A stretch of 64,000 bases of DNA, from NCBI GenBank assembly GCA_964452165.1, contig CAYVKP010000001.1, positions 76,110 through 140,109 of the forward strand. Direction: 5' to 3'. The notes under the pieces were generated by a model. That model saw nothing but the letters and a program-made list of their open reading frames with translations, was not told the origin of the DNA and did no database searches. This document shows positions 1,965 to 15,115 of this stretch, piece by piece. Both the position numbers and the translations under genes were made by a program. The DNA comes from an uncultured Gammaproteobacteria bacterium (lineage in GTDB: Bacteria > Patescibacteriota > Microgenomatia > Levybacterales > GWA1-39-11). Each line of letters opens with the position of its first letter. Position 1 is the first letter of the stretch.

Positions 1965-2036
1965 TCCCCTGTAGCTCAATGGTAGAGCAGGAAGCTGTTA
2001 ACTTCAAGGTTTGAGGTTCGAATCCTCACGGGGGAG
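1965..2036 (+). tRNA. tRNA-Asn (anticodon GTT); CCA not encoded
   Basis: Hand-folded cloverleaf. Acceptor stem tcccctg/cggggga with one G-U pair. D arm gctc/gagc. Anticodon loop cuGUUaa with U33 and A37. T arm tgagg-TTCGAAT-cctca. Discriminator G. Confidence 0.85.
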
Positions 2037-2055
2037 CAAGTTAAACTTACAACAT

Positions 2056-4800: not shown

Positions 4801-5487
4801 ATGTATCTTCAGCTTTTAGAGAAAAGGCAAGAACTTGAGGGCGTAACCTCATTCTTTTTTGAGCCAGAAAGCCCAATTGAGTGGCAAGCAGGCCAATATA
4901 TTCATTATGTCTTGCATCACCTGCCCACAGACGACCGCGGATCTGACCGTTGGTTTACAAATTCTGCGGCACCATTTGAAAAAAACGTAAGAATAACCAC
5001 CAGATTTGCAACAGATAAGGGAAGTTCTTTTAAAAAAGCGCTCGATGGTATAAAAATAGGAAAGTGGATTGAAATATCTGTTGTTGAAGGTGATTTCACT
5101 CTTGAGGATCCGGAGCGCGAATATGTTTTTTTGGCCGGTGGAATCGGTGTAACACCCTACAGATCAATAATAACGCAGCTTGCACACGATAAGAAACCCA
5201 TAAATATTACTCTTCTTTATGCAAATCGAGATGAAAATATAGTTTTCAAAGATGAACTTGAAAAAATCGCAAAAGATAACCCCAATTTTAAAATCCACTA
5301 TATTATTTCACCAGAACATATTGACGAGGCGAAAGTAAAAGAATTTGTCCCGGACATTAAAAAACCTATTTTTTATGTCTCAGGACCCGAACCTATGGTT
5401 GATAGTCTTTCCGAGATGCTTGAAAAGATGGGAATCCCGAAAGATAATATTAAGCAAGATTCCTTCCCGGGATATCCAGGTGAATAA
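4801..5487 (+). CDS. FAD/NAD(P)-binding oxidoreductase (ferredoxin-NADP reductase-like)
   Basis: GGIGVTP NAD-binding motif; FNR-like domain order. Confidence 0.7.
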   Translation: MYLQLLEKRQELEGVTSFFFEPESPIEWQAGQYIHYVLHHLPTDDRGSDRWFTNSAAPFEKNVRITTRFATDKGSSFKKALDGIKIGKWIEISVVEGDFTLEDPEREYVFLAGGIGVTPYRSIITQLAHDKKPINITLLYANRDENIVFKDELEKIAKDNPNFKIHYIISPEHIDEAKVKEFVPDIKKPIFYVSGPEPMVDSLSEMLEKMGIPKDNIKQDSFPGYPGE

Positions 5488-5577: not shown

Positions 5578-6630
5578 CTAGTTTGCTTTTCCTATTTCAA
5601 AAATAGAAAGTAGTCCAACGATTCCATTTTCATAATCTTTTAAATCCTTGGCACGCATCTCCTTCTTAAATTTCTCGTGAGTATTTAAATTGGAGAGAGT
5701 ATAACCTTGGGTGTATGCATCAAAAACCGCCGGATGAATGTAATATTTGCGGCAAGTTGAAGGAAGATTTCTGAGATGTTTTGCAACCTGTTTTACGATA
5801 TCGCTTGTCGTCTTTTTAATTGCTGCTTTGTTATTCTGCAGTCCAAAGCGATCGAGCATTTCTGCGGCCAAAACAGTCCCGGCCCAAGTTCTAAAATCTT
5901 TAGCCGTTATGTCTTCTCCAGCTATCTGCCTTAGATACTCATTAATGTCTTGAGATGTAACCACCTGCATTTGCCCCTCTTCATCTTTGTATTCAAACAA
6001 ATCTTGGCCGGGTAGGTCCTGACATTGTTTTATAATCTTAGCAACACGGCGACTTTTAATCTCTACCTTATGGTAGACTCCGCTTTTTCCCTTAAAAGCA
6101 AACTTTACCTCTCCTCCCCAGATGTCAACGTGACGATTCTTAAGAGTAGTGAGACCATAAGACTTGTTGTCTTCTTCATATTCTTCGTTTCCAACACGAA
6201 TTAACGTATTTTCAAGAAGCCAAACAACTGTTGCCAAAACTTTTTCGCGGGTCAAACCCTTTCTTTCAAGGACATTATCAACGTGGTTGCGAATTTTCGG
6301 TAAAACTTTTGCAAACTCAAGCATATGCTCAAACTTTTTTTGCTGCGAAACTTCTGTCCAAAGAGGATGATACCTATATTGCTTGCGGCCGCGGTCGTCT
6401 ACTCCCGTTGCTTGAAGGTGACCATTTCTATACGGACAAATCCATACGTCGTGCCATGCCGGGGGAATAGCAAGAGAATTAATCTTTTCGATTATATTTT
6501 TATCGGTAATTTTTCCTCCTTGAGTATCAAAATAGTAATAAGTTTCTCCGTTTTTCTTTCTTGTGTAACCGTGGCCTGTGCCCTGCGAGTACCGGAGACT
6601 TGCTTGATCAAGTAATTCTTCTGTGGACAT
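5578..6630 (-). CDS. DNA topoisomerase IB (poxvirus/Deinococcus-type TopIB)
   Basis: ATGVDDRGRKQYRYHPLW, KDFRTWAGT and active-site-region motifs of bacterial TopIB. Start taken at the ATG at 6630 (MSTEELL). The track ORF extends to 6714. Confidence 0.8.
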   Translation of the reverse strand: MSTEELLDQASLRYSQGTGHGYTRKKNGETYYYFDTQGGKITDKNIIEKINSLAIPPAWHDVWICPYRNGHLQATGVDDRGRKQYRYHPLWTEVSQQKKFEHMLEFAKVLPKIRNHVDNVLERKGLTREKVLATVVWLLENTLIRVGNEEYEEDNKSYGLTTLKNRHVDIWGGEVKFAFKGKSGVYHKVEIKSRRVAKIIKQCQDLPGQDLFEYKDEEGQMQVVTSQDINEYLRQIAGEDITAKDFRTWAGTVLAAEMLDRFGLQNNKAAIKKTTSDIVKQVAKHLRNLPSTCRKYYIHPAVFDAYTQGYTLSNLNTHEKFKKEMRAKDLKDYENGIVGLLSIFEIGKAN

Positions 6631-6667
6631 TAAAAAATTATAGCATTTCAAGTGATATAATCTTCGG

Positions 6668-7138
6668 GTGAAATACGTTGCGCTTATTCGCGGAGTTGGC
6701 CCCGGCAATCCCAATATGCATCAGGCAAGGCTCAAAGAATTCTTTGAAAGCCTTGGATTTACGGGCGTTAAGCCGGTTATTTCGAGCGGAAATGTAGTCT
6801 TTGAGAGTGATTCGAACAATGCGAAAACACTCGAAGATAAAATCGAGGAGGAGCTGCCAAAGAAATTAGGTTTCTTGCGAACGGTTATTGTCCGCTCGGA
6901 ATCAGAACTCAAGAAGTTGATAGCAGGTGATCCATACAAAGGCATAGAAGACACGCTGCCAAATTATCTTCTCGTTACTTTTTTCAAAGATAGAAAACCG
7001 GAGTTGTGTTCGGTAATCAACATGAACTCAGGTAGAACTCCTGACTTCATGGCAAGGATTGAACGAGAACATGGGAAGGAAGTTACCTCCCGCACATGGA
7101 AAACCGTCAATCGAATTTTAAAAGCGATGGCAAAATAG
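6668..7138 (+). CDS. DUF1697 family protein
   Basis: MKYVALIRGVGPGNPNM...SSGNVVFES matches the DUF1697 N-terminal signature. GTG start 7 nt after TGATATAAT. Confidence 0.7.
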   Translation: MKYVALIRGVGPGNPNMHQARLKEFFESLGFTGVKPVISSGNVVFESDSNNAKTLEDKIEEELPKKLGFLRTVIVRSESELKKLIAGDPYKGIEDTLPNYLLVTFFKDRKPELCSVINMNSGRTPDFMARIEREHGKEVTSRTWKTVNRILKAMAK

Positions 7139-7151
7139 CTTTTGGTATAAT
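7131..7151 (+). promoter_or_regulatory. degenerate copy of the iterated promoter box (gcaaaatagcttttgGTATAAT) before gene 7158
   Basis: Extended -10 TGgTATAAT; ATG 6 nt downstream. Confidence 0.45.
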
Positions 7152-7157
7152 TGCCCC

Positions 7158-8009
7158 ATGAAGCGCGAAGAAGGATTTCTTAAAACCTCTGGCGGAAAGG
7201 TTTGGTATGAAATAGTTGGCGATTCCGTCAAAACCCCACTCCTTGTGATCCACGGAGGGCCGGGATATCCCCATGACTATTTGGAGCCGCTGTCTGATTT
7301 GGCTAACTCGCGAAAAGTCATTTTTTATGATCAACTCGATTGTGGAAATTCCCAACGGGTAAAAAATAAATCGCTTTGGACACTCGAATATTTTACTGAA
7401 GAACTCGAACAGCTCACGAAGGAGCTTGGCTTAAAACAGTACCATATCTTGGGCCATTCCTGGGGATCAGGCTTGGGACTTGCCTTTGCGCTTAAAAAAC
7501 CCAAAGGTCTTTCGGGTCTGATTTTGGCTGACCCATATATCAGCACACCTCTGTGGGAAAAGGATGCAATGAAACTACTCGGAAAGTTTTCAAAAAAAAT
7601 GCGGGAGACGTTATTAAAAAATGATGCCGAATCAGAAGGGTACAAAAATGCCTGGAGGCAGTTTTATTACAAGCACGTTTTCATGATGAAAGAGTTACCC
7701 GTGCACGTACTTAAGTCCGAACACAAAATGAACGTAGAACTTTATAATTATATGTGGGGACCTGCTGAATTTAAGCCTACCGGAACGCTCATAGATTTTG
7801 ATTTAGCAGGAAGACTGCACGAAATAAAAATACCGGTTCTTTTACTTTGTGGTCGGTTTGATGAAGCAACTCCAGCAACAGTTGAATATTTTAAAAATCA
7901 AATTCCGAACGCAAAAATGGAAGTGTTTGAGAAAAGCGCCCACTTCCCACACTGGACAGAAAGAAAAGAATACATTGAAACTGTCCGCTCCTTCCTAAAC
8001 AGCCTGTAG
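7158..8009 (+). CDS. alpha/beta hydrolase, proline iminopeptidase (S33) family
   Basis: LLVIHGGPGYPHDY and the GHSWG nucleophile elbow. Confidence 0.8.
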   Translation: MKREEGFLKTSGGKVWYEIVGDSVKTPLLVIHGGPGYPHDYLEPLSDLANSRKVIFYDQLDCGNSQRVKNKSLWTLEYFTEELEQLTKELGLKQYHILGHSWGSGLGLAFALKKPKGLSGLILADPYISTPLWEKDAMKLLGKFSKKMRETLLKNDAESEGYKNAWRQFYYKHVFMMKELPVHVLKSEHKMNVELYNYMWGPAEFKPTGTLIDFDLAGRLHEIKIPVLLLCGRFDEATPATVEYFKNQIPNAKMEVFEKSAHFPHWTERKEYIETVRSFLNSL

Positions 8010-8030
8010 ACAAATTTCTTCTGATATAAT
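8004..8030 (+). promoter_or_regulatory. iterated promoter box copy (cctgtagacaaatttcttcTGaTATAAT) before gene 8037
   Basis: TGnTATAAT extended -10; start codon 6 nt downstream (leaderless). Confidence 0.55.
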
Positions 8031-8036
8031 TGCCTC

Positions 8037-8765
8037 GTGGAAGATTTATTTATTGAAAACGACGGAAATAGGCTTGCTGCAACTATTTTTAGACCGAACG
8101 ATAAAAAGCGCAAAAATCCTGCAATTCTTTTTATTCCCGGCTGGACAGGCGAGCGAAAAAGAAATTTTCAGTTCGCAAAGTCTCTTGTAAAATTAGGCTA
8201 TATTTGTTTTCTGGTAGATTTACGAGGTCATGGAGATAGCGAGGGCGATATTAACAATTCTACTCATCAACAATTCTTAAGCGATGTCTTTGCAGCATAT
8301 GATTATCTTGCGGAGATAGATGGAGTAGACCCTGATAATATCAGCGCTGTTGGCTCAAGTTTTGGCGGATATCTTGCTTCGATCCTTTCATCCAAAAGAA
8401 AAGTTAAGAACTTGGTACTCCGTGTCCCCGCAAACTATCCCAATGATGCTTTTCTCAAGCTTTCAAGAGCCTCAAGCGCGACCAACAGCCCAGAGATAAT
8501 AGAGTGGAGAAAAGAAGCAAGACAGCCGGAAGATACCTATTCCCTTGAAGCGCTACACAATTTCGATGGGAGTGTATTGGTAATTGAATCGGAGCTTGAT
8601 GAATTTGTCCCCCATCAAACAATTGAAAACTACATGAACTCAGTCAAAGATAAGACTAAATTAACGCACGTCTTTATGAAAGACGCACCCCACAGTATAA
8701 GAGAAGGAAAATTCCGAGACGAAGTGGAAAAAATCTACCTCGACTGGTTCCGTAAGACCTTGTAG
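8037..8765 (+). CDS. alpha/beta hydrolase (dienelactone-hydrolase/BAAT-like)
   Basis: GSSFGG nucleophile elbow; ILFIPGWTGERK. GTG start 6 nt after TATAAT. Confidence 0.7.
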   Translation: MEDLFIENDGNRLAATIFRPNDKKRKNPAILFIPGWTGERKRNFQFAKSLVKLGYICFLVDLRGHGDSEGDINNSTHQQFLSDVFAAYDYLAEIDGVDPDNISAVGSSFGGYLASILSSKRKVKNLVLRVPANYPNDAFLKLSRASSATNSPEIIEWRKEARQPEDTYSLEALHNFDGSVLVIESELDEFVPHQTIENYMNSVKDKTKLTHVFMKDAPHSIREGKFRDEVEKIYLDWFRKTL

Positions 8766-8786
8766 ACAAATTTCTTCTGGTATAAT
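8759..8786 (+). promoter_or_regulatory. iterated promoter box copy (ccttgtagacaaatttcttcTGgTATAAT) before gene 8800
   Basis: Near-identical to the copy at 8004. Confidence 0.55.
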
Positions 8787-8799
8787 CAATTTTGAAATC

Positions 8800-9132
8800 A
8801 TGCAGTTTTTAATAATAGGAAAAGACGGGACTGACGAGGAAGGAAAAAACAGAAGAATCGCAGCAAGAGACGCACACATTAAGCTTGGAGATGAGCTTCT
8901 TGCTTCTGGTAATATGTGGTACGGCGCAGCCTTGTTGAACGACAACAATGAAATGATTGGATCAATGCTTCTCATGGACTTTACGTCCGAACAAGCGCTA
9001 CACGATTGGCTTGATAACGAACCCTATGTAACCGGAAAAGTATGGGAGTCAGTAGAAATATCAAAGTGCAATGTCCGGGATCCTTGGCAATTTAGCCGCC
9101 CACAATCCTTCTTTGAATCAAGAAAGAAATAG
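8800..9132 (+). CDS. YciI-like dimeric alpha/beta-barrel protein
   Basis: Pattern RRIAARDAHIKLGDELLASG...GAALLNDNNEMIGSMLLMDFTSEQALHDWLDNEPYV resembles the YciI family. Confidence 0.55.
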   Translation: MQFLIIGKDGTDEEGKNRRIAARDAHIKLGDELLASGNMWYGAALLNDNNEMIGSMLLMDFTSEQALHDWLDNEPYVTGKVWESVEISKCNVRDPWQFSRPQSFFESRKK

Positions 9133-9138
9133 AAACTT

Positions 9139-9166
9139 CTTGTAAACAAATTGCTTCTGATATACT
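9139..9166 (+). promoter_or_regulatory. iterated promoter box copy (cttgtaaacaaattgcttcTGaTATACT) before gene 9174
   Basis: Same box; ATG 7 nt after the -10. Confidence 0.55.
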
Positions 9167-9173
9167 TTTCGTA

Positions 9174-9938
9174 ATGCGGGAAATTAAGTTTGTAACTCAT
9201 ATATCGCGAAACTTCTATCTATATTTCCTAGTTTTTCTTCTTTTAAAGCTTGTCTTTAATTTTCAAACAAGCTTGCAATTGTTTTTTTTGGGATTGCTTG
9301 CATATGGAGTTGGATATGCGCCCGTATACTTCTTGAATGATTCTCAAGACCATAAAGAGGACAAAGCGGACCATAAGGACAATCTTTATTCGGCAATAGG
9401 GAGTCCGGCATTATTTTGGATCATTACGTTTTCTCTATTCGCAGTTGGAGCTTACTTAGGTATTTTGGTATCAACTAAGGGCTATATCTTAATGCTCGTC
9501 TGCTACATACTTAACTTTCTGCACAGCTTTAGGCCTTTTAGGTTTAAGGGGAACCTTATGCATTATTCCGCGAACTACTTTATTATGAACCTGGTTAAGT
9601 TTGGGCTCATGATTTCATATCTCCATTTTACCTTTACAACTAGCCTCATAGGATTGATGCTTATGTTTGCCTCTGGAGCAACGCTTGCTGGGTTAATTTA
9701 TAAAAGACATAAGCATAAAAACACGATAATTGAGGGTATTTTTGGCTTTATTTTTTTGATAGCTTCAGCTATTTCTACTTACCAGTATCCAAAACTATTG
9801 ATACTCTTGGCGCCGATCGTAGTTCTTATGGTTTATGCAAACAATAAATACAAAGATAAACCGCTGCCGGCCAACCAATTCCAACTCGCGATGCTTATTT
9901 ATTCTCTCGTTGTCTTCGCAATAATAACCTTCTTGTAA
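9174..9938 (+). CDS. UbiA-like prenyltransferase-family membrane protein (putative)
   Basis: Polytopic membrane protein with an NDSQDHKED (NDxxDxxxD) Asp-rich motif. Confidence 0.45.
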   Translation: MREIKFVTHISRNFYLYFLVFLLLKLVFNFQTSLQLFFLGLLAYGVGYAPVYFLNDSQDHKEDKADHKDNLYSAIGSPALFWIITFSLFAVGAYLGILVSTKGYILMLVCYILNFLHSFRPFRFKGNLMHYSANYFIMNLVKFGLMISYLHFTFTTSLIGLMLMFASGATLAGLIYKRHKHKNTIIEGIFGFIFLIASAISTYQYPKLLILLAPIVVLMVYANNKYKDKPLPANQFQLAMLIYSLVVFAIITFL

Positions 9939-9961
9939 ACAAACTACTTCGGTTTTAGAAT
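9932..9961 (+). promoter_or_regulatory. iterated promoter box copy (cttgtaaacaaactacttcggttttagaat) before gene 9969
   Basis: Conserved 5' half; -10 TAGAAT; ATG 7 nt downstream. Confidence 0.5.
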
Positions 9962-9968
9962 CAAATAG

Positions 9969-10544
9969 ATGTATCTTCGGCTGTATTTTTTATTTTTTGG
10001 TTTTGTTGGTTTAATTGCACTGCTTGCTCAGTTTATATCTTTTCCGAACCTAGTAAACTACCTTAGTCTCTTTACAATCTTAAGTAACATTGCGGCAACT
10101 TTTCTTTTTCTTTACCTTGGCTTTATGGGAAAAAGTAGATATTCGGAGACTATAGATTTTCTATTCGGTGCTTTTGTAATGTATATAATGCTTACTACTA
10201 CGGGTTATTGGGTATTTCTTAGAAATGAACCCGTTCTGACCCCATGGATTAATATAGTACTTCACCTAGTTATGCCAGGCGCAGTCGTGGTGGGCTGGAT
10301 AATCCATAAGCACCAAAAGACGCTAAAGTACAAAACAGTTTTAATATGGCTCACTTTTCCAGTTCTTTACCTTGTTTATACGCTTGTTCGCGGGGGCCTC
10401 ACAAATTGGTATCCATACCCATTTTTAAATCCCGCAGAGTCCGGTGGATACGGAGGAGCTTTTATTTACGTAGCCATTCTTTCAATAGCTGCTTATCTTT
10501 TTGGCATCGCAACAGTTTTCATCGGCAACAAACTCCGCAAATAA
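9969..10544 (+). CDS. integral membrane protein, 5-6 TM, function unknown
   Basis: Hydrophobic helices; NWYPYPFL motif; no confident family assignment. Confidence 0.5.
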   Translation: MYLRLYFLFFGFVGLIALLAQFISFPNLVNYLSLFTILSNIAATFLFLYLGFMGKSRYSETIDFLFGAFVMYIMLTTTGYWVFLRNEPVLTPWINIVLHLVMPGAVVVGWIIHKHQKTLKYKTVLIWLTFPVLYLVYTLVRGGLTNWYPYPFLNPAESGGYGGAFIYVAILSIAAYLFGIATVFIGNKLRK

Positions 10545-10548
10545 TAAT

Positions 10549-10576
10549 CTTGTAAATAAATTGCTCCTGGTATAAT
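10549..10576 (+). promoter_or_regulatory. iterated promoter box copy (cttgtaaataaattgctccTGgTATAAT) before gene 10582
   Basis: Same box; ATG 5 nt after the -10. Confidence 0.55.
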
Positions 10577-10581
10577 TAAGC

Positions 10582-11358
10582 ATGGCACCCACGCAATTTG
10601 AAGATGTTAATAGTCTTCTAGGTGAACTTCTAAAAGAGCTGCAGACCGTTCTTGGTGAAAAACTCGTAGGCTTGTATCTTTATGGATCGCTTGTTTGGGG
10701 AGATTTTGACCATGATATCAGCGATATTGATTTATTGGCCGCAACCTCGGAAGACATAAATCAAGAAGATCTTGAGGCATTAAGAACAATGCATGAAGAT
10801 TTTACCAGTAAACACCTTAGGTGGAAAGACAGGATTGAAATTCAATACGTTTCAGTTTCGGTATTAAAAACATATAAATCTTCCGCAGAGGAAGGAACCC
10901 TAGCCGCGATAAGTCCAGGGGATCCGCTTAAGATAGCGCCTGCCTTAAAGGATTATTTAATGAATTGGTATTCTGTCATGGAGAAAGGGATTACGCTTTT
11001 TGGACCTGATCCCAAAACGGTTATCGAACCTGTTTCGAAAGAAGAGTTTATCCAAGCGGTAAAGAAAAACGTAAGCAAATGGACTACGTATATAGAGGGG
11101 ACAAAACATTCTCGCCCTTATCAGGCATATGCAATATTAACCATGTGTAGGGCGCTATACGCTTATAAAAATGGCGAACAGCCTTCAAAAAAGCAAGCGG
11201 CTGAGTGGGCGCAGAAAGAATTACCGGATTGGGCTCCATTGATACAAGATGCTTTATCTTGGCGCAAAGATTACAGGAATGAAAATGTTGAACATGAGAA
11301 AACGTACCCCAAAACAGTTGAGTTCGTCAATTTCATAAGTAAGCTGATCCAAGAGTAA
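10582..11358 (+). CDS. nucleotidyltransferase-domain protein, ANT(9)/ANT(3'')-like aminoglycoside adenylyltransferase fold
   Basis: GSLVWGDFDHDISDIDLL NTase motif, roughly 260 aa with a helical C-terminal domain as in AadA-type enzymes. Confidence 0.6.
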   Translation: MAPTQFEDVNSLLGELLKELQTVLGEKLVGLYLYGSLVWGDFDHDISDIDLLAATSEDINQEDLEALRTMHEDFTSKHLRWKDRIEIQYVSVSVLKTYKSSAEEGTLAAISPGDPLKIAPALKDYLMNWYSVMEKGITLFGPDPKTVIEPVSKEEFIQAVKKNVSKWTTYIEGTKHSRPYQAYAILTMCRALYAYKNGEQPSKKQAAEWAQKELPDWAPLIQDALSWRKDYRNENVEHEKTYPKTVEFVNFISKLIQE

Positions 11359-11388
11359 CTTGTAAATAAATTACTCTGGGTGTATCAT
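11359..11388 (+). promoter_or_regulatory. iterated promoter box copy (cttgtaaataaattactctgggTGtATCAT) before gene 11397
   Basis: Conserved 5' half; -10 TATCAT; TTG start 8 nt downstream. Confidence 0.5.
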
Positions 11389-11396
11389 GCTCCAAA

Positions 11397-12134
11397 TTGC
11401 AGTCCGACTATATATCTATACGCTATAAAGAAGCTATACCGGTGGTAAGCCTCTGCTATTTATGCGATGAACCTTTAGATTCAACTGCCACTTCTGACCA
11501 TATTATTCCAAATCATTTATTTAAACCTGGGGATCCTCATAGACCAAAACTACCCGTACATTATGCCTGTAATAATTTGAAATCAAAGGAAGATGAATGG
11601 TTTGTTAAGCAATTACAATTACGATCTGCTTTTGACAAAGGTGCTGAGGAAGAATTTTCAAAGTTAATGACGAAAGCCATAATTGAAAAACCTGATGCAT
11701 ACATAATTGGCAAAAAGCTACACAACTATAAGTTGGCAAAAGGAATGTTCGAAGGAATAGAGTGGGGATTTGAACTGCCATACAAAGACGAGGCTCTCAT
11801 GCAATTTAAAATACCGAAAAACATCGCGGAGCGCTTTGGAAAAAATGTGGAGGATTTATGTACCGGATTGTATATTCGCAATATACCATCATCAAAACCA
11901 TCTAGGCCCGAAATTATGTTAACACAGGACAAAAAACTTGCTTTTAATGGTAAAGCTGAAGGATTTTATAATTCAATAATTGGATTTATGAAAGCTTCAG
12001 AAAGTAGTCTATTTATGCAACGCTGGGATAGTAGGATTTTCTACGTAGGAAGTCGCGTTGCAGAAACACCAGATAAAGGCTTTATATTCATCCAGTTTTA
12101 TACCCAATTCAATATTCTGGCTGTTTTTAGATAG
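11397..12134 (+). CDS. hypothetical protein with HNH-like N-terminal motif
   Basis: CYLCDEPLDSTATSDHIIPNHLF (CxxC...DHxxP...H). TTG start; start uncertain. Confidence 0.45.
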   Translation: MQSDYISIRYKEAIPVVSLCYLCDEPLDSTATSDHIIPNHLFKPGDPHRPKLPVHYACNNLKSKEDEWFVKQLQLRSAFDKGAEEEFSKLMTKAIIEKPDAYIIGKKLHNYKLAKGMFEGIEWGFELPYKDEALMQFKIPKNIAERFGKNVEDLCTGLYIRNIPSSKPSRPEIMLTQDKKLAFNGKAEGFYNSIIGFMKASESSLFMQRWDSRIFYVGSRVAETPDKGFIFIQFYTQFNILAVFR

Positions 12135-12158
12135 CTCACAGTCTATCGATATTAAGTC

Positions 12159-12187
12159 TTGACTTAATTAAGTGGAGGGTTTATAAT
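12159..12187 (+). promoter_or_regulatory. consensus sigma-70 promoter (TTGACT-17-TATAAT) for arsR; near-leaderless
   Basis: TTGACT at 12159-12164, 17-nt spacer, TATAAT at 12182-12187; ATG at 12195. Confidence 0.55.
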
Positions 12188-12194
12188 ACTCCTA

Positions 12195-12518
12195 ATGGAC
12201 ACATTTCAAGCTCTTTCTGACCCCAACCGTCGCCGTATTATCGAGTTAATCGCTGCTAAGGGACAACTTACTGCCACAGATATTTCAGACAACTTCAAAG
12301 TCTCAGCACCAGCAATTTCCCAACACTTAAAAATCTTACGAGAAGCAAAATTGGTTGACATGGAAAAGCGAGCACAACAAAGAATTTATACAATTAACAC
12401 TGCTTCAATTCATGAAATAGAAGAGTGGGCAAGAAAAATGGTCGCGACATGGGACGCGCGCTTTAAAAAATTAGACAAGTTACTTGAGGATCTTAAAAAG
12501 AAGGGAGGGAAAAAATAA
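12195..12518 (+). CDS. ArsR/SmtB-family transcriptional regulator
   Basis: LSDPNRRRIIELI...ISQHLKILREAKLV winged HTH. Confidence 0.85.
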   Translation: MDTFQALSDPNRRRIIELIAAKGQLTATDISDNFKVSAPAISQHLKILREAKLVDMEKRAQQRIYTINTASIHEIEEWARKMVATWDARFKKLDKLLEDLKKKGGKK

Positions 12519-13618: not shown

Positions 13619-14218
13619 ATGCGAAAGATAATTGTTCTATCATTTATCTCTCTTGATGGTGTGATGCAGGCGCCTGGTGGCCCTGAGGAAGACACTTCAG
13701 GCGGTTTTAAATACGGCGGCTGGACAGCGCCTTTCTTTGATGACTTTGCAGGTAAAATAATGGGCGAGCAAATGAGTGGAGACTACGATTTGCTCTTAGG
13801 AAGAAAGACTTATGATATATTTGCAGGTTATTGGCCTACGCATGCAGGTGAATTCTGGCCCCAAGTAAATAAAATTACAAAATATGTCGTCTCAAAAACT
13901 CTCGAGAAAGGAACTTGGACAAATTCAGTCGTTTTAAAAGATTCATCGGATATCAAAAAACTAAAAGATGAGGACGGAACCCCTCTTCAGGTTCACGGAA
14001 GCGGAAATTTAATTCAGACACTTTTGAAAGAAGATCTAGTGGACGAACTCTGGCTTAAAACATTCCCCGTGACTTTAGGTCCCGGGAAAAAGCTTTTTGC
14101 GGAGGGTACGATTCCCGGTGCATTTACCCTTACTGACAGTAAAGTTTCACCAAGCGGAGTAATATTTGCAAATTACAAGCGTGCGGGAGAAGTCAAAACC
14201 GGCACGGTGGGTGAATAG
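13619..14218 (+). CDS. dihydrofolate-reductase-like RibD_C family protein
   Basis: MRKIIVLSFISLDGVMQAPGGPEED...GRKTYDIFAGYWP, RibD C-terminal (PF01872) pattern. Confidence 0.8.
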   Translation: MRKIIVLSFISLDGVMQAPGGPEEDTSGGFKYGGWTAPFFDDFAGKIMGEQMSGDYDLLLGRKTYDIFAGYWPTHAGEFWPQVNKITKYVVSKTLEKGTWTNSVVLKDSSDIKKLKDEDGTPLQVHGSGNLIQTLLKEDLVDELWLKTFPVTLGPGKKLFAEGTIPGAFTLTDSKVSPSGVIFANYKRAGEVKTGTVGE

Positions 14219-14542: not shown

Positions 14543-15115
14543 ATGAGAAAGATAATTGTTTTCAATATGATCTCGGCCGATGGCTATTTTGCAGGAATTG
14601 ATGGCGACATCTCATGGCACATGGTAGACGACGAATTTAATAAATTCGCGATTGAACATACACAAGAGTTTGGAACTATAATTTTTGGCCACACGACTTA
14701 CAAAATCTTTGAAGAATACTGGCCAAAAGCTTTAAAAGACCCAAAAACAGGTGCGGACGATCGTAAAATTGCGCAGATAATAGAGGACGTGCAGAAAATA
14801 GTATTTTCAAAAAAACGTAAAGAGGTCACCTGGAATAATTCGAAGGTATTCAATAAAATTACACCTGAAAATGTAATTGCCTGGAAAGAAAAAAAAGGAA
14901 GCGACGGAAAACCTGCTGCCATTTTTGGAAGCGGGCAGATAGTTGCGCAATTTACGGATCTGGGTTTAATCGACGAATACCGCCTGATGATAAATCCCGT
15001 TATTTTGGGCGCCGGGAAATCTATGTTTGCCGGAGTCAAAAAGCAGAATCTGAAGCTAATAAAAACGCGAGAATTTAAAAATGGAAATATACTCGCCTAT
15101 TACCAACCACAATGA
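14543..15115 (+). CDS. dihydrofolate-reductase-like RibD_C family protein (paralog of 13619..14218)
   Basis: MRKIIVFNMISADGYFAG...GHTTYKIFEEYWP. Confidence 0.8.
   Translation: MRKIIVFNMISADGYFAGIDGDISWHMVDDEFNKFAIEHTQEFGTIIFGHTTYKIFEEYWPKALKDPKTGADDRKIAQIIEDVQKIVFSKKRKEVTWNNSKVFNKITPENVIAWKEKKGSDGKPAAIFGSGQIVAQFTDLGLIDEYRLMINPVILGAGKSMFAGVKKQNLKLIKTREFKNGNILAYYQPQ

What the first reader, a model, noticed from the sequence alone, without database searches (positions are those of the whole stretch)
6650..11400. Eight consecutive plus-strand genes each preceded by its own copy of a roughly 28-nt promoter box, all leaderless
The consensus cTTGTA[AG]ACAAATT[GT]CTTCTG[AG]TATAAT recurs ahead of the start codons at 8037, 8800, 9174, 9969, 10582 and 11397 (nearly identical copies). 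Recognisable degenerate copies lie ahead of 7158 and 6668. Each is an extended -10 (TGnTATAAT) placed 5-8 nt (13 nt for 8800) from the start codon, giving leaderless mRNAs with no Shine-Dalgarno. In two cases the stop codon of the preceding gene is embedded in the box (ctTGTAGacaaa). The conserved 5' half (TTGTAAACAAATTGC) is longer than a -35 hexamer needs to be. This suggests a shared operator for a single regulator, or a repeated cassette-junction sequence left by stepwise gene accretion. The cargo is heterogeneous (DUF1697, two hydrolases, a YciI-like protein, a UbiA-like protein, a membrane protein, an ANT-like nucleotidyltransferase, an HNH-like protein).
Basis: seen in the sequence. Interest (0 to 1): 0.7.

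Follow-up and report, generated by a model that had tools for sequence, protein, structure and literature searches.

The report
Copied promoter box before six genes
In an uncultured CPR (Patescibacteria) bacterium, six unrelated neighbouring genes each carry their own copy of one private 28-nt promoter, which looks like a promoter copied stepwise as genes accumulated in a variable region; this is a compact example of promoter reuse, not a new kind of system.

Summary
Six boxes are real, not eight. They start at 8003, 8759, 9139, 9932, 10549 and 11359 on the + strand. Each ends 5-8 nt (13 nt for 8800) before the next start codon, and nothing similar occurs elsewhere in the 64 kb. The window comes from a Levybacteria-like CPR/Patescibacteria genome.

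The extended -10, leaderless, no-SD part of the finding is the organism's ordinary gene architecture: 36 of 69 genes have it, against 9% of random sites. The 5' 16-21 nt (CTTGTAAAYAAATTGCTTCTG) is not generic.

The same module occurs in at least four other related environmental contigs, in front of unrelated genes. Similarity between copies falls with distance along the array (r=0.80; 4 of 720 orderings reach this). Relatives have different genes between conserved promoter modules.

Best reading: a lineage-specific sigma-70 promoter module was copied stepwise, giving each accreted ORF its own leaderless transcript. This happened in a hypervariable accessory array downstream of rpoD and tRNA-Asn. 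It is a short-format case of promoter propagation.

An added operator role is neither shown nor excluded. Integron-like, MITE-like, Xer-site and RNA-element readings fail their defining tests. The supposed copies before 7158 and 6668 are not box copies.

The parts
8003..8030 (+). Box W1: CCTGTAGACAAATTTCTTCTGATATAAT. It contains the stop TAG (8007-8009) of the upstream hydrolase. TGATATAAT lies 6 nt before GTG 8037.
   Evidence: The 3' two-thirds and the tail TGCCTC are conserved at the orthologous gene in L070/L071.
8759..8786 (+). Box W2: CTTGTAGACAAATTTCTTCTGGTATAAT. It contains the stop TAG (8763-8765) of the S15-like hydrolase. It lies 13 nt before ATG 8800.
9139..9166 (+). Box W3: CTTGTAAACAAATTGCTTCTGATATACT, 7 nt before ATG 9174.
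9932..9961 (+). Box W4: CTTGTAAACAAACTACTTCGGTTTTAGAAT. It contains the stop TAA (9936-9938). It is the TTGTAA-17-TAGAAT form and lies 7 nt before ATG 9969.
10549..10576 (+). Box W5: CTTGTAAATAAATTGCTCCTGGTATAAT, 5 nt before ATG 10582.
   Evidence: Its 5' 16 nt are identical to the copy in relative L070 at 9975.
11359..11388 (+). Box W6: CTTGTAAATAAATTACTCTGGGTGTATCAT, followed by GCTCCAAA, 8 nt before TTG 11397. It starts directly after stop 11356-11358. It is the TATCAT variant shared with L033, L052 and L070.
8037..8765 (+). Gene 1 behind a box: alpha/beta hydrolase (Peptidase_S15/S9/DLH-like). The start is confirmed by the ortholog (GTG here, ATG at the same site in L071).
8800..9132 (+). 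Gene 2: YciI-like protein.
9174..9938 (+). Gene 3: membrane protein with no family above threshold (weak UbiA, E 0.0086).
9969..10544 (+). Gene 4: Pr6Pr-family membrane protein.
   Evidence: NF038065, 74.8 bits against a cut-off of 30
10582..11358 (+). Gene 5: AadA/ANT-like nucleotidyltransferase.
11397..12134 (+). Gene 6: protein of unknown family with a CxxC...DH...N motif (HNH-like by eye only).
7133..7157 (+). Partial relative of the module before Abhydrolase_1 (7158-8009): GCTTTTGGTATAATTGCCCC. It lacks the 5' block.
6653..6661 (+). Generic TGATATAAT, 6 nt before GTG 6668 (DUF1697). It is not a box copy. It overlaps a divergent TGCTATAAT promoter for the topoisomerase IB gene on the minus strand.
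12159..12187 (+). Right-hand boundary: a canonical TTGACT-17-TATAAT promoter of the ArsR/SdpR-family gene (12195-12518). It has the perfect palindrome ACTTAATTAAGT and no box.

Best explanation
The six boxes are copies of one lineage-specific sigma-70-type promoter module. The module has a -35-like TTGTAA, a conserved spacer AAYAAATTGCTTCTG, and then either TGnTATAAT at 15-nt spacing or TAGAAT/TATCAT at 17-nt spacing. It has been copied locally, one junction after another, in a hypervariable accessory-gene array of a Levybacteria-like CPR bacterium.

Each copy is a complete, very compact gene junction. It carries stop codons in all three frames that end the upstream ORF. It also places transcription initiation at, or within a few nt of, the next start codon. 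Every unrelated ORF therefore gets its own leaderless mRNA without a Shine-Dalgarno sequence.

What is shown: the copies and their significance; that the leaderless -10 design is genome-typical; that the 5' block is not; that the module occurs in related genomes before other genes; that similarity falls with distance along the array; and that relatives carry different ORFs between conserved promoter modules.

What is inferred: that the boxes fire as promoters; that copying accompanied gene gain; and that recombination between module copies (short homology) drives gain, loss and replacement of ORFs.
For: (1) Reality and clustering. There are 6 copies, with 0 expected. They precede 6 of 69 genes, and all six are contiguous.

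(2) Promoter logic. W4 and W6 are picked up as TTGTAA-17-TAGAAT/TATCAT. The four copies with 15-nt spacing all carry TGn, and the two with 17-nt spacing do not, so each copy keeps one valid route to a working promoter. The -10 lies 5-8 nt before the start in 5 of 6 copies.

(3) Generic versus specific. In 104 non-box leaderless promoters from the window and relatives, only T-5, TG at -3/-2 and a weak TTGa at -23 to -20 carry information. Box positions -22 to -6 are not generic. 36 of 69 genes are leaderless-type, against 9% of random sites.

(4) Common descent rather than convergence. Mismatch count rises with distance along the array: r=0.80, and 4 of 720 orderings are as good. Conservation runs through the spacer, and in some copies through the discriminator to the start codon. 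TATAATTGCCBY occurs twice in the window and 4 times in 14 kb of L070, always directly before a start codon.

(5) Spread to other genes and genomes. L070 9975 has CTTGTAAATAAATTGCTTCTTGCTATAATTGCCCC-ATG before an unrelated 525-aa gene. L033, L052 and L031 carry CTTGTAAATAAATTGCTTTTGTT plus TATCAT/TATAAC. There is no copy in about 120 kb from six other relatives.

(6) Turnover at modules. The S15 ortholog in L070/L071 keeps CAAtTTTCaTCTGATATAATTGCCTC-ATG but has a different upstream gene and a fused second module. DUF1697 is followed by three different genes in three genomes, each behind a TGnTATAAT placed directly after the stop. Between the TATCAT module and the conserved ArsR promoter, the window has the 245-aa gene and L033 has a small membrane gene.

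(7) The flanking CDSs are not homologous to each other.

(8) There is no + strand terminator, RNA family or secondary structure at the junctions.

(9) The concept is documented as promoter propagation, or 'putative mobile promoters' (PMC3488235).
Against: No transcription data exist, so promoter activity and leaderless starts are inferred from sequence only.

Only 64 kb of a roughly 650-kb contig could be examined, so 'confined to the island' is not proven.

The gradient test rests on six short sequences. It would also arise from local gene conversion without gene accretion.

The 5' block is identical (16 of 16) between the window's W5 and L070's copy, although orthologous proteins of the two species are only 72-80% identical. 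That suggests either selection on the block (an extra function such as an operator) or recent exchange between two species that co-occur in the same sample. Neutral copying alone does not explain it.

The metagenome members (L031, L033, L052) were found with a pattern that required the 5' block, so their identity there is ascertained.

The evidence for breakpoints at modules is a handful of junctions, not a population sample.
Confidence: 0.6

Rival explanations
1. Shared operator or regulon. The conserved 5' block (CTTGTAAAYAAATTGC, covering about -34 to -19) is the binding site of one repressor, activator or alternative sigma factor. That factor co-regulates six single-gene units, and selection for it keeps the block conserved. 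This is compatible with an origin by copying.
For: The block is longer than a -35 hexamer and is not part of the generic promoter. It is identical across species whose proteins differ by 20-28%. In the four TGn copies it sits 2 nt too close to serve as a canonical -35 yet is still conserved. Its position over the -35 and spacer is typical for repressors (general knowledge).
Against: The only dyad, TTGT-N2-ACAA, is lost in W5, W6 and all copies from other genomes (TTGTAAATAA). The distance to the -10 is 15 nt in some copies and 17 nt in others. The cargo is functionally heterogeneous. The only regulator within the accessory region is an ArsR/SdpR-family gene. Its own conserved promoter carries a different palindrome, ACTTAATTAAGT, which is absent from the boxes. 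The similarity gradient along the array is not expected from selection towards one consensus. At the orthologous S15 promoter in L070 the 5' block is missing, so 'regulon membership' is not stable.
Confidence: 0.25
2. Site-specific cassette system. The box is a recombination site, like an integron attC, a Xer/pdif site or a site for the neighbouring topoisomerase IB, at which single-gene cassettes are inserted and excised by a dedicated enzyme.
For: Directly repeated short sites separate unrelated single genes in one orientation. Gene content differs between relatives at module boundaries. One hybrid junction in L070 looks like a deletion between two modules. A type IB topoisomerase gene, which has a tyrosine-recombinase-like catalytic fold (general knowledge), abuts the array in this genome only.
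Against: No integrase, transposase or Xer gene lies among the genes from 18 to 27821. The junctions have no hairpin; they fold worse than shuffles on either strand (z about -0.1 to +1.4, except W6 at -1.7), so there is no attC-like structure. There are no 11-6-11 palindromic arms. The box lies 5' of genes and contains their promoter, whereas integron cassettes are mostly promoterless. No array of boxes was found in 185,579 species genomes or in the JGI metagenomes.
Confidence: 0.07
3. Nothing special. The box is just the organism's ordinary promoter consensus, and the similarity is what strong promoters look like in an AT-rich genome.
For: TGnTATAAT 5-8 nt before the start is the norm here. 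T-rich sequence before TG is mildly favoured. One unrelated promoter (before 20555) also has GCTTCTGATATAAT.
Against: Positions -22 to -6 carry almost no information in 104 other promoters. The 5'-half PWM finds only the six copies in 64 kb, and none in about 120 kb of six relatives. The six copies are contiguous.
Confidence: 0.05
4. RNA-level element. On a polycistronic transcript the box would act as a terminator, processing site or translational re-initiation signal.
For: There are no terminators between the genes, so read-through transcripts containing the box probably exist.
Against: There is no Rfam match at E up to 1. There is no stable structure. The conserved letters coincide with promoter elements at promoter spacing, and TGn compensates for the short spacing.
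Confidence: 0.02

Closest known systems
Putative mobile promoters / promoter propagation (Matus-Garcia, Nijveen & van Passel 2012, PMC3488235)
   Same: Homologous promoter sequences sit upstream of non-homologous genes, within one genome and shared between related genomes. They are proposed to arise by recombination-mediated duplication or HGT and to wire newly acquired genes.
   Different: Here the repeat is only 28-30 nt (about 45 nt in the TATCAT variant), so it is below that study's 50-nt, 80%-identity criterion. The copies form a contiguous head-to-tail array rather than being scattered. The module ends at the start codon (leaderless) and doubles as the stop region of the upstream gene. 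The host is a CPR bacterium.
Integron gene-cassette arrays (attC sites; e.g. Vibrio chromosomal integrons)
   Same: An array of unrelated single genes in one orientation is separated by a repeated short sequence, and gene content varies between relatives.
   Different: There is no integrase and no attC hairpin. The repeat is a promoter lying 5' of each gene, not a 57-141-nt recombination site 3' of a promoterless cassette.
Leaderless, TA-led genes of Actinobacteria and Deinococcus-Thermus (Zheng et al. 2011, PMC3160421)
   Same: A TANNNT -10 box lies about 10 nt upstream of the start codon with no SD. This is a genome-wide architecture.
   Different: That describes the generic signal only. The window adds a private conserved 5' block shared by six neighbours. 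About half of the genes in this window show the signal, more than the 20-30% reported for those phyla.
Promoter-carrying small repeats (Neisseria Correia elements, other MITEs, REP/BIME)
   Same: Short dispersed repeats can supply promoters to adjacent genes.
   Different: There are no terminal inverted repeats, no target-site duplications and no secondary structure. The element is far shorter and is locally clustered.
Local regulons with repeated operators (for example one repressor acting on several adjacent promoters)
   Same: An identical sequence overlaps the -35 and spacer of several neighbouring promoters.
   Different: There is no conserved dyad, the spacing to the -10 varies, no cognate regulator was identified, and the copies show a neighbour-similarity gradient.

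Membership tests
Putative mobile promoters (PMC3488235) | Homologous sequence within about 150 nt upstream of the start of non-homologous downstream CDSs | tested here: met
   Six copies lie directly upstream of six genes with no pairwise similarity (blastp, best E 0.3).
Putative mobile promoters (PMC3488235) | Upstream CDSs also non-homologous, so there is no whole-gene duplication | tested here: met
   Only Abh1 and S15 share a superfamily by Pfam. They do not align significantly.
Putative mobile promoters (PMC3488235) | Alignment of at least 50 nt at 80% identity or more | tested here: not met
   The repeat is 26-32 nt. The longest register is 39 nt at 67-85% identity. The TATCAT variant is conserved over about 45 nt.
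Putative mobile promoters (PMC3488235) | Not explained by an IS, MITE or riboswitch | tested here: met
   There is no Rfam hit, no structure or inverted repeat, and no transposase among the genes from 18 to 27821.
Integron cassette array | IntI-type tyrosine recombinase with attI next to the array | tested here: not met
   A Pfam scan of all genes from 18 to 27821 finds none. The only related fold is a topoisomerase IB.
Integron cassette array | attC: an imperfect palindrome of 57-141 nt that folds as a single-stranded hairpin | tested here: not met
   ssDNA folding of the six junctions on the + strand and three of them on the - strand gives -0.1 to -1.6 kcal/mol, no better than shuffles (W6 -4.8, z -1.7). 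The intergenic space is only 27-41 nt.
Integron cassette array | Cassettes mostly promoterless and expressed from Pc | tested here: not met
   Each unit carries its own -10 and -35.
Sigma-70 leaderless promoter | TANNNT -10 with TGn extension or a -35 at 16-18 nt | tested here: met
   Four copies have TGnTATAAT/TATACT. Two copies have TTGTAA-17-TAGAAT/TATCAT.
Sigma-70 leaderless promoter | -10 ends 5-8 nt before the start codon, with no SD | tested here: met
   The gaps are 6, 7, 7, 5 and 8 nt in five copies and 13 nt for 8800. The criterion follows PMC3160421.
Sigma-70 leaderless promoter | Primary 5' ends at the start codon | not testable with these tools
   No transcriptome data are available.
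Transcription-factor operator / regulon | Conserved dyad or direct-repeat symmetry of the site | tested here: not met
   TTGT-N2-ACAA is present in W1-W4 only (imperfect in W1). W5, W6, L070, L031, L033 and L052 have TTGTAAATAA.
Transcription-factor operator / regulon | Fixed position relative to core promoter elements | tested here: not met
   The spacing is 15 nt in four window copies (also L070 9975 and L031) and 17 nt in W4 and W6 (also L033 and L052).
Transcription-factor operator / regulon | A cognate DNA-binding protein | tested here: inconclusive
   Only an ArsR/SdpR-family gene is nearby. Its own conserved promoter palindrome ACTTAATTAAGT is unrelated to the box. Binding cannot be tested.
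MITE / Correia-like promoter-bearing repeat | Terminal inverted repeats and target-site duplication | tested here: not met
   No inverted repeat or hairpin is present in or around the box.
Xer (dif/pdif) module boundary | A 28-nt site with two 11-nt partly palindromic arms around a 6-nt spacer | tested here: not met
   By inspection, the arms CTTGTAAACAA and TCTGGTATAAT match in 5 of 11 positions as reverse complements, which is the chance level.

The most novel reading that the evidence does not exclude
The promoter modules are the working junctions of an integrase-free cassette array. They are the only conserved sequence between otherwise unrelated ORFs, and they are shared between co-occurring CPR species (the window strain and the L070/L071 species are both in run SRR9179560). 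They could therefore provide the short homology at which single ORFs are deleted, inserted or swapped after DNA uptake. Every swap would automatically yield a correctly terminated upstream ORF and a leaderless, expressed downstream ORF. The array downstream of rpoD and tRNA-Asn would then be a dedicated 'plug-in' site for accessory genes in these reduced genomes.
Probability: 0.15. Interest if true: 0.7.

Novelty: new variant of a known kind. Interest (0 to 1): 0.42.

Why it matters
CPR/Patescibacteria are uncultured and have very small genomes. The literature searches here found nothing on their promoters or transcription start sites.

This locus gives a concrete, testable picture of how such organisms may express newly gained genes. 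Single-ORF units are packed head to tail. Each has a minimal junction that stops the previous ORF and starts a leaderless mRNA, and one junction type has been copied six times in a row.

If confirmed, the locus offers three things. It documents promoter reuse at a scale below the thresholds of earlier surveys. It provides a ready-made set of natural promoter variants (15-nt versus 17-nt spacing, with or without TGn) for studying CPR transcription. It marks the rpoD/tRNA-Asn-linked array as a hotspot for comparing gene gain and loss between strains.

It does not reveal a new class of mobile element or regulator on present evidence.

Tried and rejected
(1) Collection scans with CTTGTARAYAAAYTDCTYYKGDT. 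The genome-contig scan gave 23 singletons, all chance, and none is followed by a -10. The metagenome-contig scan gave 30 singletons, of which only L031, L033 and L052 turned out to be real relatives. L028 looked promising because an ORF ends in the box TAA, but it is a 29% GC Bacteroidetes-like contig, so it is chance.

(2) Two viral-contig scans (box and TATCAT tail) found nothing credible.

(3) The source 650-kb NCBI contig could not be fetched; only short same-strain Logan fragments were returned. A whole-genome box census was therefore impossible.

(4) Relatives chosen by RpoD identity (96-89%: L058/L065, L059/L063, L067, L061, L138) have the variable array but no box.

(5) ArsR as the box regulator was rejected as unsupported, because its own conserved operator-like palindrome is different.

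(6) The attC-like, terminator and RNA-element ideas were rejected: there is no structure and no Rfam hit.

(7) Foreign origin of the six genes by composition was rejected: GC and GC3 are within the range of the rest of the window.

(8) A vaccinia-type topoisomerase IB site (C/T)CCTT next to the boxes is not consistently present (inspection).

(9) The degenerate copies before 7158 and 6668 are not supported.

(10) PADLOC gives only a weak nucleotidyltransferase-domain hit for the AadA-like protein and nothing for the others.

Full report
THE OBSERVATION

Reading 6000-12500 and pattern searches confirm six + strand copies of a 28-30-nt box:
- W1 8003 CCTGTAGACAAATTTCTTCTGATATAAT
- W2 8759 CTTGTAGACAAATTTCTTCTGGTATAAT
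- W3 9139 CTTGTAAACAAATTGCTTCTGATATACT
- W4 9932 CTTGTAAACAAACTACTTCGGTTTTAGAAT
- W5 10549 CTTGTAAATAAATTGCTCCTGGTATAAT
- W6 11359 CTTGTAAATAAATTACTCTGGGTGTATCAT

The 27-nt consensus has 4 matches at up to 3 mismatches, against none in 100 shuffles. No further copy of the 5' 15-mer exists in the 64 kb. An unbiased repeat search ranks this family first.

The -10 hexamers end 6, 13, 7, 7, 5 and 8 nt before the starts at 8037, 8800, 9174, 9969, 10582 and 11397. The stop codon of the preceding gene lies inside the box three times (8007, 8763, 9936).

Short Logan contigs from three sequencing runs carry identical junctions, so the repeats are not an assembly artefact.

The two extra 'degenerate copies' (before 7158 and 6668) do not hold up. 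PWM scans of the 5' half and of the spacer find only the six copies. 6668 has only a generic TGATATAAT. 7158 shares GCTTtTGGTATAAT and the tail TGCCCC.

WHAT ORGANISM, AND WHAT IS GENERIC

The first gene of the window is the primary sigma factor. Its best relatives are annotated Patescibacteria and Candidatus Levybacteria.

In this window, 36 of 69 genes have a TAnnnT hexamer 4-11 nt before the start codon, against 9.2% of random positions. Fifteen of those have TGn. This is the sequence signature of leaderless genes defined by Zheng et al. (PMC3160421).

I aligned 104 such promoters from the window and seven related loci, excluding the box family. Only T at -5, TG at -3/-2 and a weak TTGa at -23 to -20 carry information. 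The region corresponding to the box's 5' two-thirds carries essentially none.

The leaderless, extended -10, no-SD part of the finding is therefore ordinary for this organism. The block CTTGTAAAYAAATTGCTTCTG is not.

ANATOMY OF THE BOX AS A PROMOTER

W4 and W6 are canonical TTGTAA-17-TAGAAT/TATCAT promoters and are found as such by the consensus scan.

W1, W2, W3 and W5 have the same 5' block 2 nt closer to the -10 (15-nt spacing). Exactly these four carry the TGn extension, which makes a -35 dispensable. The two 17-nt copies lack TGn. Each copy thus keeps one valid way of being a promoter.

The box also holds stop codons in all three frames: TAA or TAG at positions 5-7, TAA at 9-11 when position 9 is T, and TAA inside TATAAT.

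No + strand terminator lies in any junction. No Rfam family matches. As single strands the junctions fold no better than shuffles, and usually worse.

The six genes behind the boxes, and the genes in front of them, are unrelated to one another. They are an S15/S9-type hydrolase, a YciI-like protein, an unclassified membrane protein, a Pr6Pr membrane protein, an AadA-like nucleotidyltransferase and an unclassified protein with an HNH-like motif. Their GC and GC3 are unremarkable.

SURROUNDINGS AND RELATIVES

Genes from about 2.4 to 20 kb are small accessory functions: SET, aldo-keto reductase, glyoxalases, PhnB-like, RibD_C, DUF1697, DUF2277, cupin, VIT1 and others. From about 20.5 kb onward the scanned genes (to 27.8 kb) are mostly housekeeping, including ruvABC at about 24 kb. 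No integrase or transposase was found.

I looked up RpoD and the NAD-binding protein (4801-5487) in related assemblies. Every relative has a hypervariable run of mostly same-strand small genes downstream of rpoD, and six of the eight scanned loci carry a tRNA-Asn there. Gene sets overlap but differ. Most of these genes have their own TGnTATAAT 5-7 nt before ATG.

YciI, the two membrane proteins, AadA-like, the HNH-like protein, topoisomerase IB, ArsR and AHSA1 have no homolog in the fetched parts of those relatives.

THE BOX OUTSIDE THE WINDOW

Scans of 185,579 species genomes and of the JGI metagenomes with a degenerate 23-mer returned only single hits. Most lie inside long ORFs of unrelated taxa.

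Four related sources do carry the module.

- L070 (GCA_964616095.1; NAD-binding protein 80%, S15 hydrolase 72% identical to the window's) has CTTGTAAATAAATTGCTTCTTGCTATAATTGCCCC-ATG before an unrelated 525-aa gene. It also has three copies of the TATCAT variant.
- L033 has CTTGTAAATAAATTGCTTTTGTTTTATCATGCTCCCAACC before a small membrane gene. That gene is followed by an ArsR ortholog with a nearly identical promoter.
- L052 has the same module after a GNAT gene.
- L031 has it overlapping the stop of a SET gene, with no gene behind it.

About 120 kb from six other relatives has none.

L071, from the same run as the window strain, is the L070 species. The two box-bearing species therefore co-occur.

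EVIDENCE ON ORIGIN

(a) Mismatches between the six window copies increase with their separation in the array. W1-W2 differ at 1 position, W2-W3 at 2, and W1-W6 at 7. The correlation is r=0.80, and only 4 of 720 orderings reach it. This is what stepwise local copying or local conversion predicts. Selection towards a single operator consensus does not predict it.

(b) Conservation is not limited to protein-contact elements. It runs through the spacer, and in a sub-family through the discriminator up to the start codon. TATAATTGCCBY occurs 2 times in the window (0.07 expected) and 4 times in 14 kb of L070, always directly before a start codon of a different gene.

(c) Three sets of junctions show turnover at modules.
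- The S15 ortholog of L070/L071 retains CAAtTTTCaTCTGATATAATTGCCTC-ATG. It has a different upstream gene and a degenerate TATCAT module fused to it at a shared CAA(A)TT. It has no box at its 3' end.
- DUF1697 is followed by three different genes in three genomes, each behind a -10 placed directly after the stop.
- Between the TATCAT module and the conserved ArsR promoter, the window and L033 carry different genes.

Promoter modules stay while ORFs between them change.

INTERPRETATION

The best-supported reading (confidence about 0.6) is a lineage-specific promoter module that has been propagated along a growing array of single-ORF, leaderless transcription units. This is an instance of promoter propagation ('putative mobile promoters', PMC3488235). 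The format is more compact than that survey could detect, because it required 50 nt at 80% identity.

How the copies are made is inferred, not shown. The most economical idea is recombination between module copies at short homology during gain, loss or replacement of ORFs.

A regulatory role of the 5' block remains possible (about 0.25, and not exclusive). In its favour, the block is identical between species whose proteins have diverged by 20-28%, and it is conserved even where TGn makes a -35 unnecessary. Against it, the only dyad is not conserved across the family, the block's spacing to the -10 varies, the cargo is heterogeneous, and the neighbouring ArsR gene has a different conserved palindrome (ACTTAATTAAGT) in its own promoter.

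Integron-like, Xer-site, MITE and RNA-element readings each fail defining features that were tested.

LIMITS

There are no transcription data. Only a tenth of the source contig was visible, and the contig itself could not be fetched. The comparative junctions are few. The three metagenome members were found with a pattern that fixes the 5' block.

VERDICT

The repeat is real and statistically secure. Part of the description is generic biology of the organism. The interesting residue is a private promoter copied six times in a row, plausibly marking stepwise gene accretion.

It is a new variant of a known kind of phenomenon. It is of moderate interest, mainly as an entry point to transcription and gene gain in CPR bacteria.

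Noticed in passing
window 1-64000 (all genes): About half of the genes (36 of 69; 31 of 63 without the box genes) have a TAnnnT -10 box 4-11 nt before the start codon, so leaderless mRNAs may be the main mode here. Some internal operon genes do have GGAGG (for example before 12518 and 19895). The share is higher than the 20-30% reported for Actinobacteria and Deinococcus-Thermus (PMC3160421).
   Followed up: partly
window 12159-12194; L033 (minus strand) about 456-520: The ArsR/SdpR-family gene has a TTGACT-17-TATAAT promoter containing the perfect 12-bp palindrome ACTTAATTAAGT. The promoter is 38 of 40 nt identical in metagenome contig L033 while the flanks diverge. This is probably the autoregulatory operator.
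   Followed up: partly
window 6631-6667: A 37-nt divergent control region lies between topoisomerase IB (minus strand, ATG at 6630) and DUF1697 (GTG 6668). It holds two back-to-back leaderless promoters: TGCTATAAT on the minus strand and TGATATAAT on the plus strand.
   Followed up: no
window 5578-6630 (-): A bacterial type IB topoisomerase gene sits between the NAD-binding gene and DUF1697 only in this genome. In L070 these two genes are adjacent, and the other fetched relatives also lack it here. Any link to array rearrangement is pure speculation.
   Followed up: partly
window 1965-2037; L058 18997, L059 15924, L061 7373, L065 7782, L067 9808: tRNA-Asn(GTT) lies inside the variable region downstream of rpoD in six of the eight scanned relative loci. 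Variable accessory genes lie on both sides of it, which is a typical hotspot layout for gene gain.
   Followed up: partly
L065 about 5530 and 8835; L067 about 11185: A different palindrome, GTGATTAAAATCAC (Crp/Fnr-like), precedes several accessory genes in relatives that also encode a cNMP-binding/HTH_Crp_2 regulator in the array (L065 5923-6558; L070 3049-3759). It is absent from the window's box region.
   Followed up: no
L070 13465-13537 (= L071 2345-2417): One TATCAT-variant module is followed by GCTCCCAACCTGCCAAGTCGGTAGGTTTTTTT-ATG. This is a short GC hairpin plus a T-run directly before the start codon, and it looks like a terminator or attenuator in a 5' leader. In L033 the same leader lacks the hairpin.
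   Followed up: no
window 11389-11420: Just after box W6, the start of the 245-aa ORF reads GCTCCAAATTGCAGTCCGACTATATA. This repeats the box core CAAATTGC and has a TATATA further on, so it may be a remnant of a second, decayed module. The true start of this gene (TTG 11397 or GTG 11442) is uncertain.
   Followed up: no
window 13619-14218 and 14543-15115: Two RibD_C-domain paralogs (31% identical) lie in the same array, separated by DUF2277. Their first 40 nt are similar (repeat D10).
   Followed up: no
L091 485-520 (IMGVR_UViG_3300033121_000954): A viral contig carries CTTGTAAATAAATTACTTTTGTATCATAATT, which resembles the box plus TATCAT at a shorter spacing. It is probably chance, and it was not examined further.
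   Followed up: no
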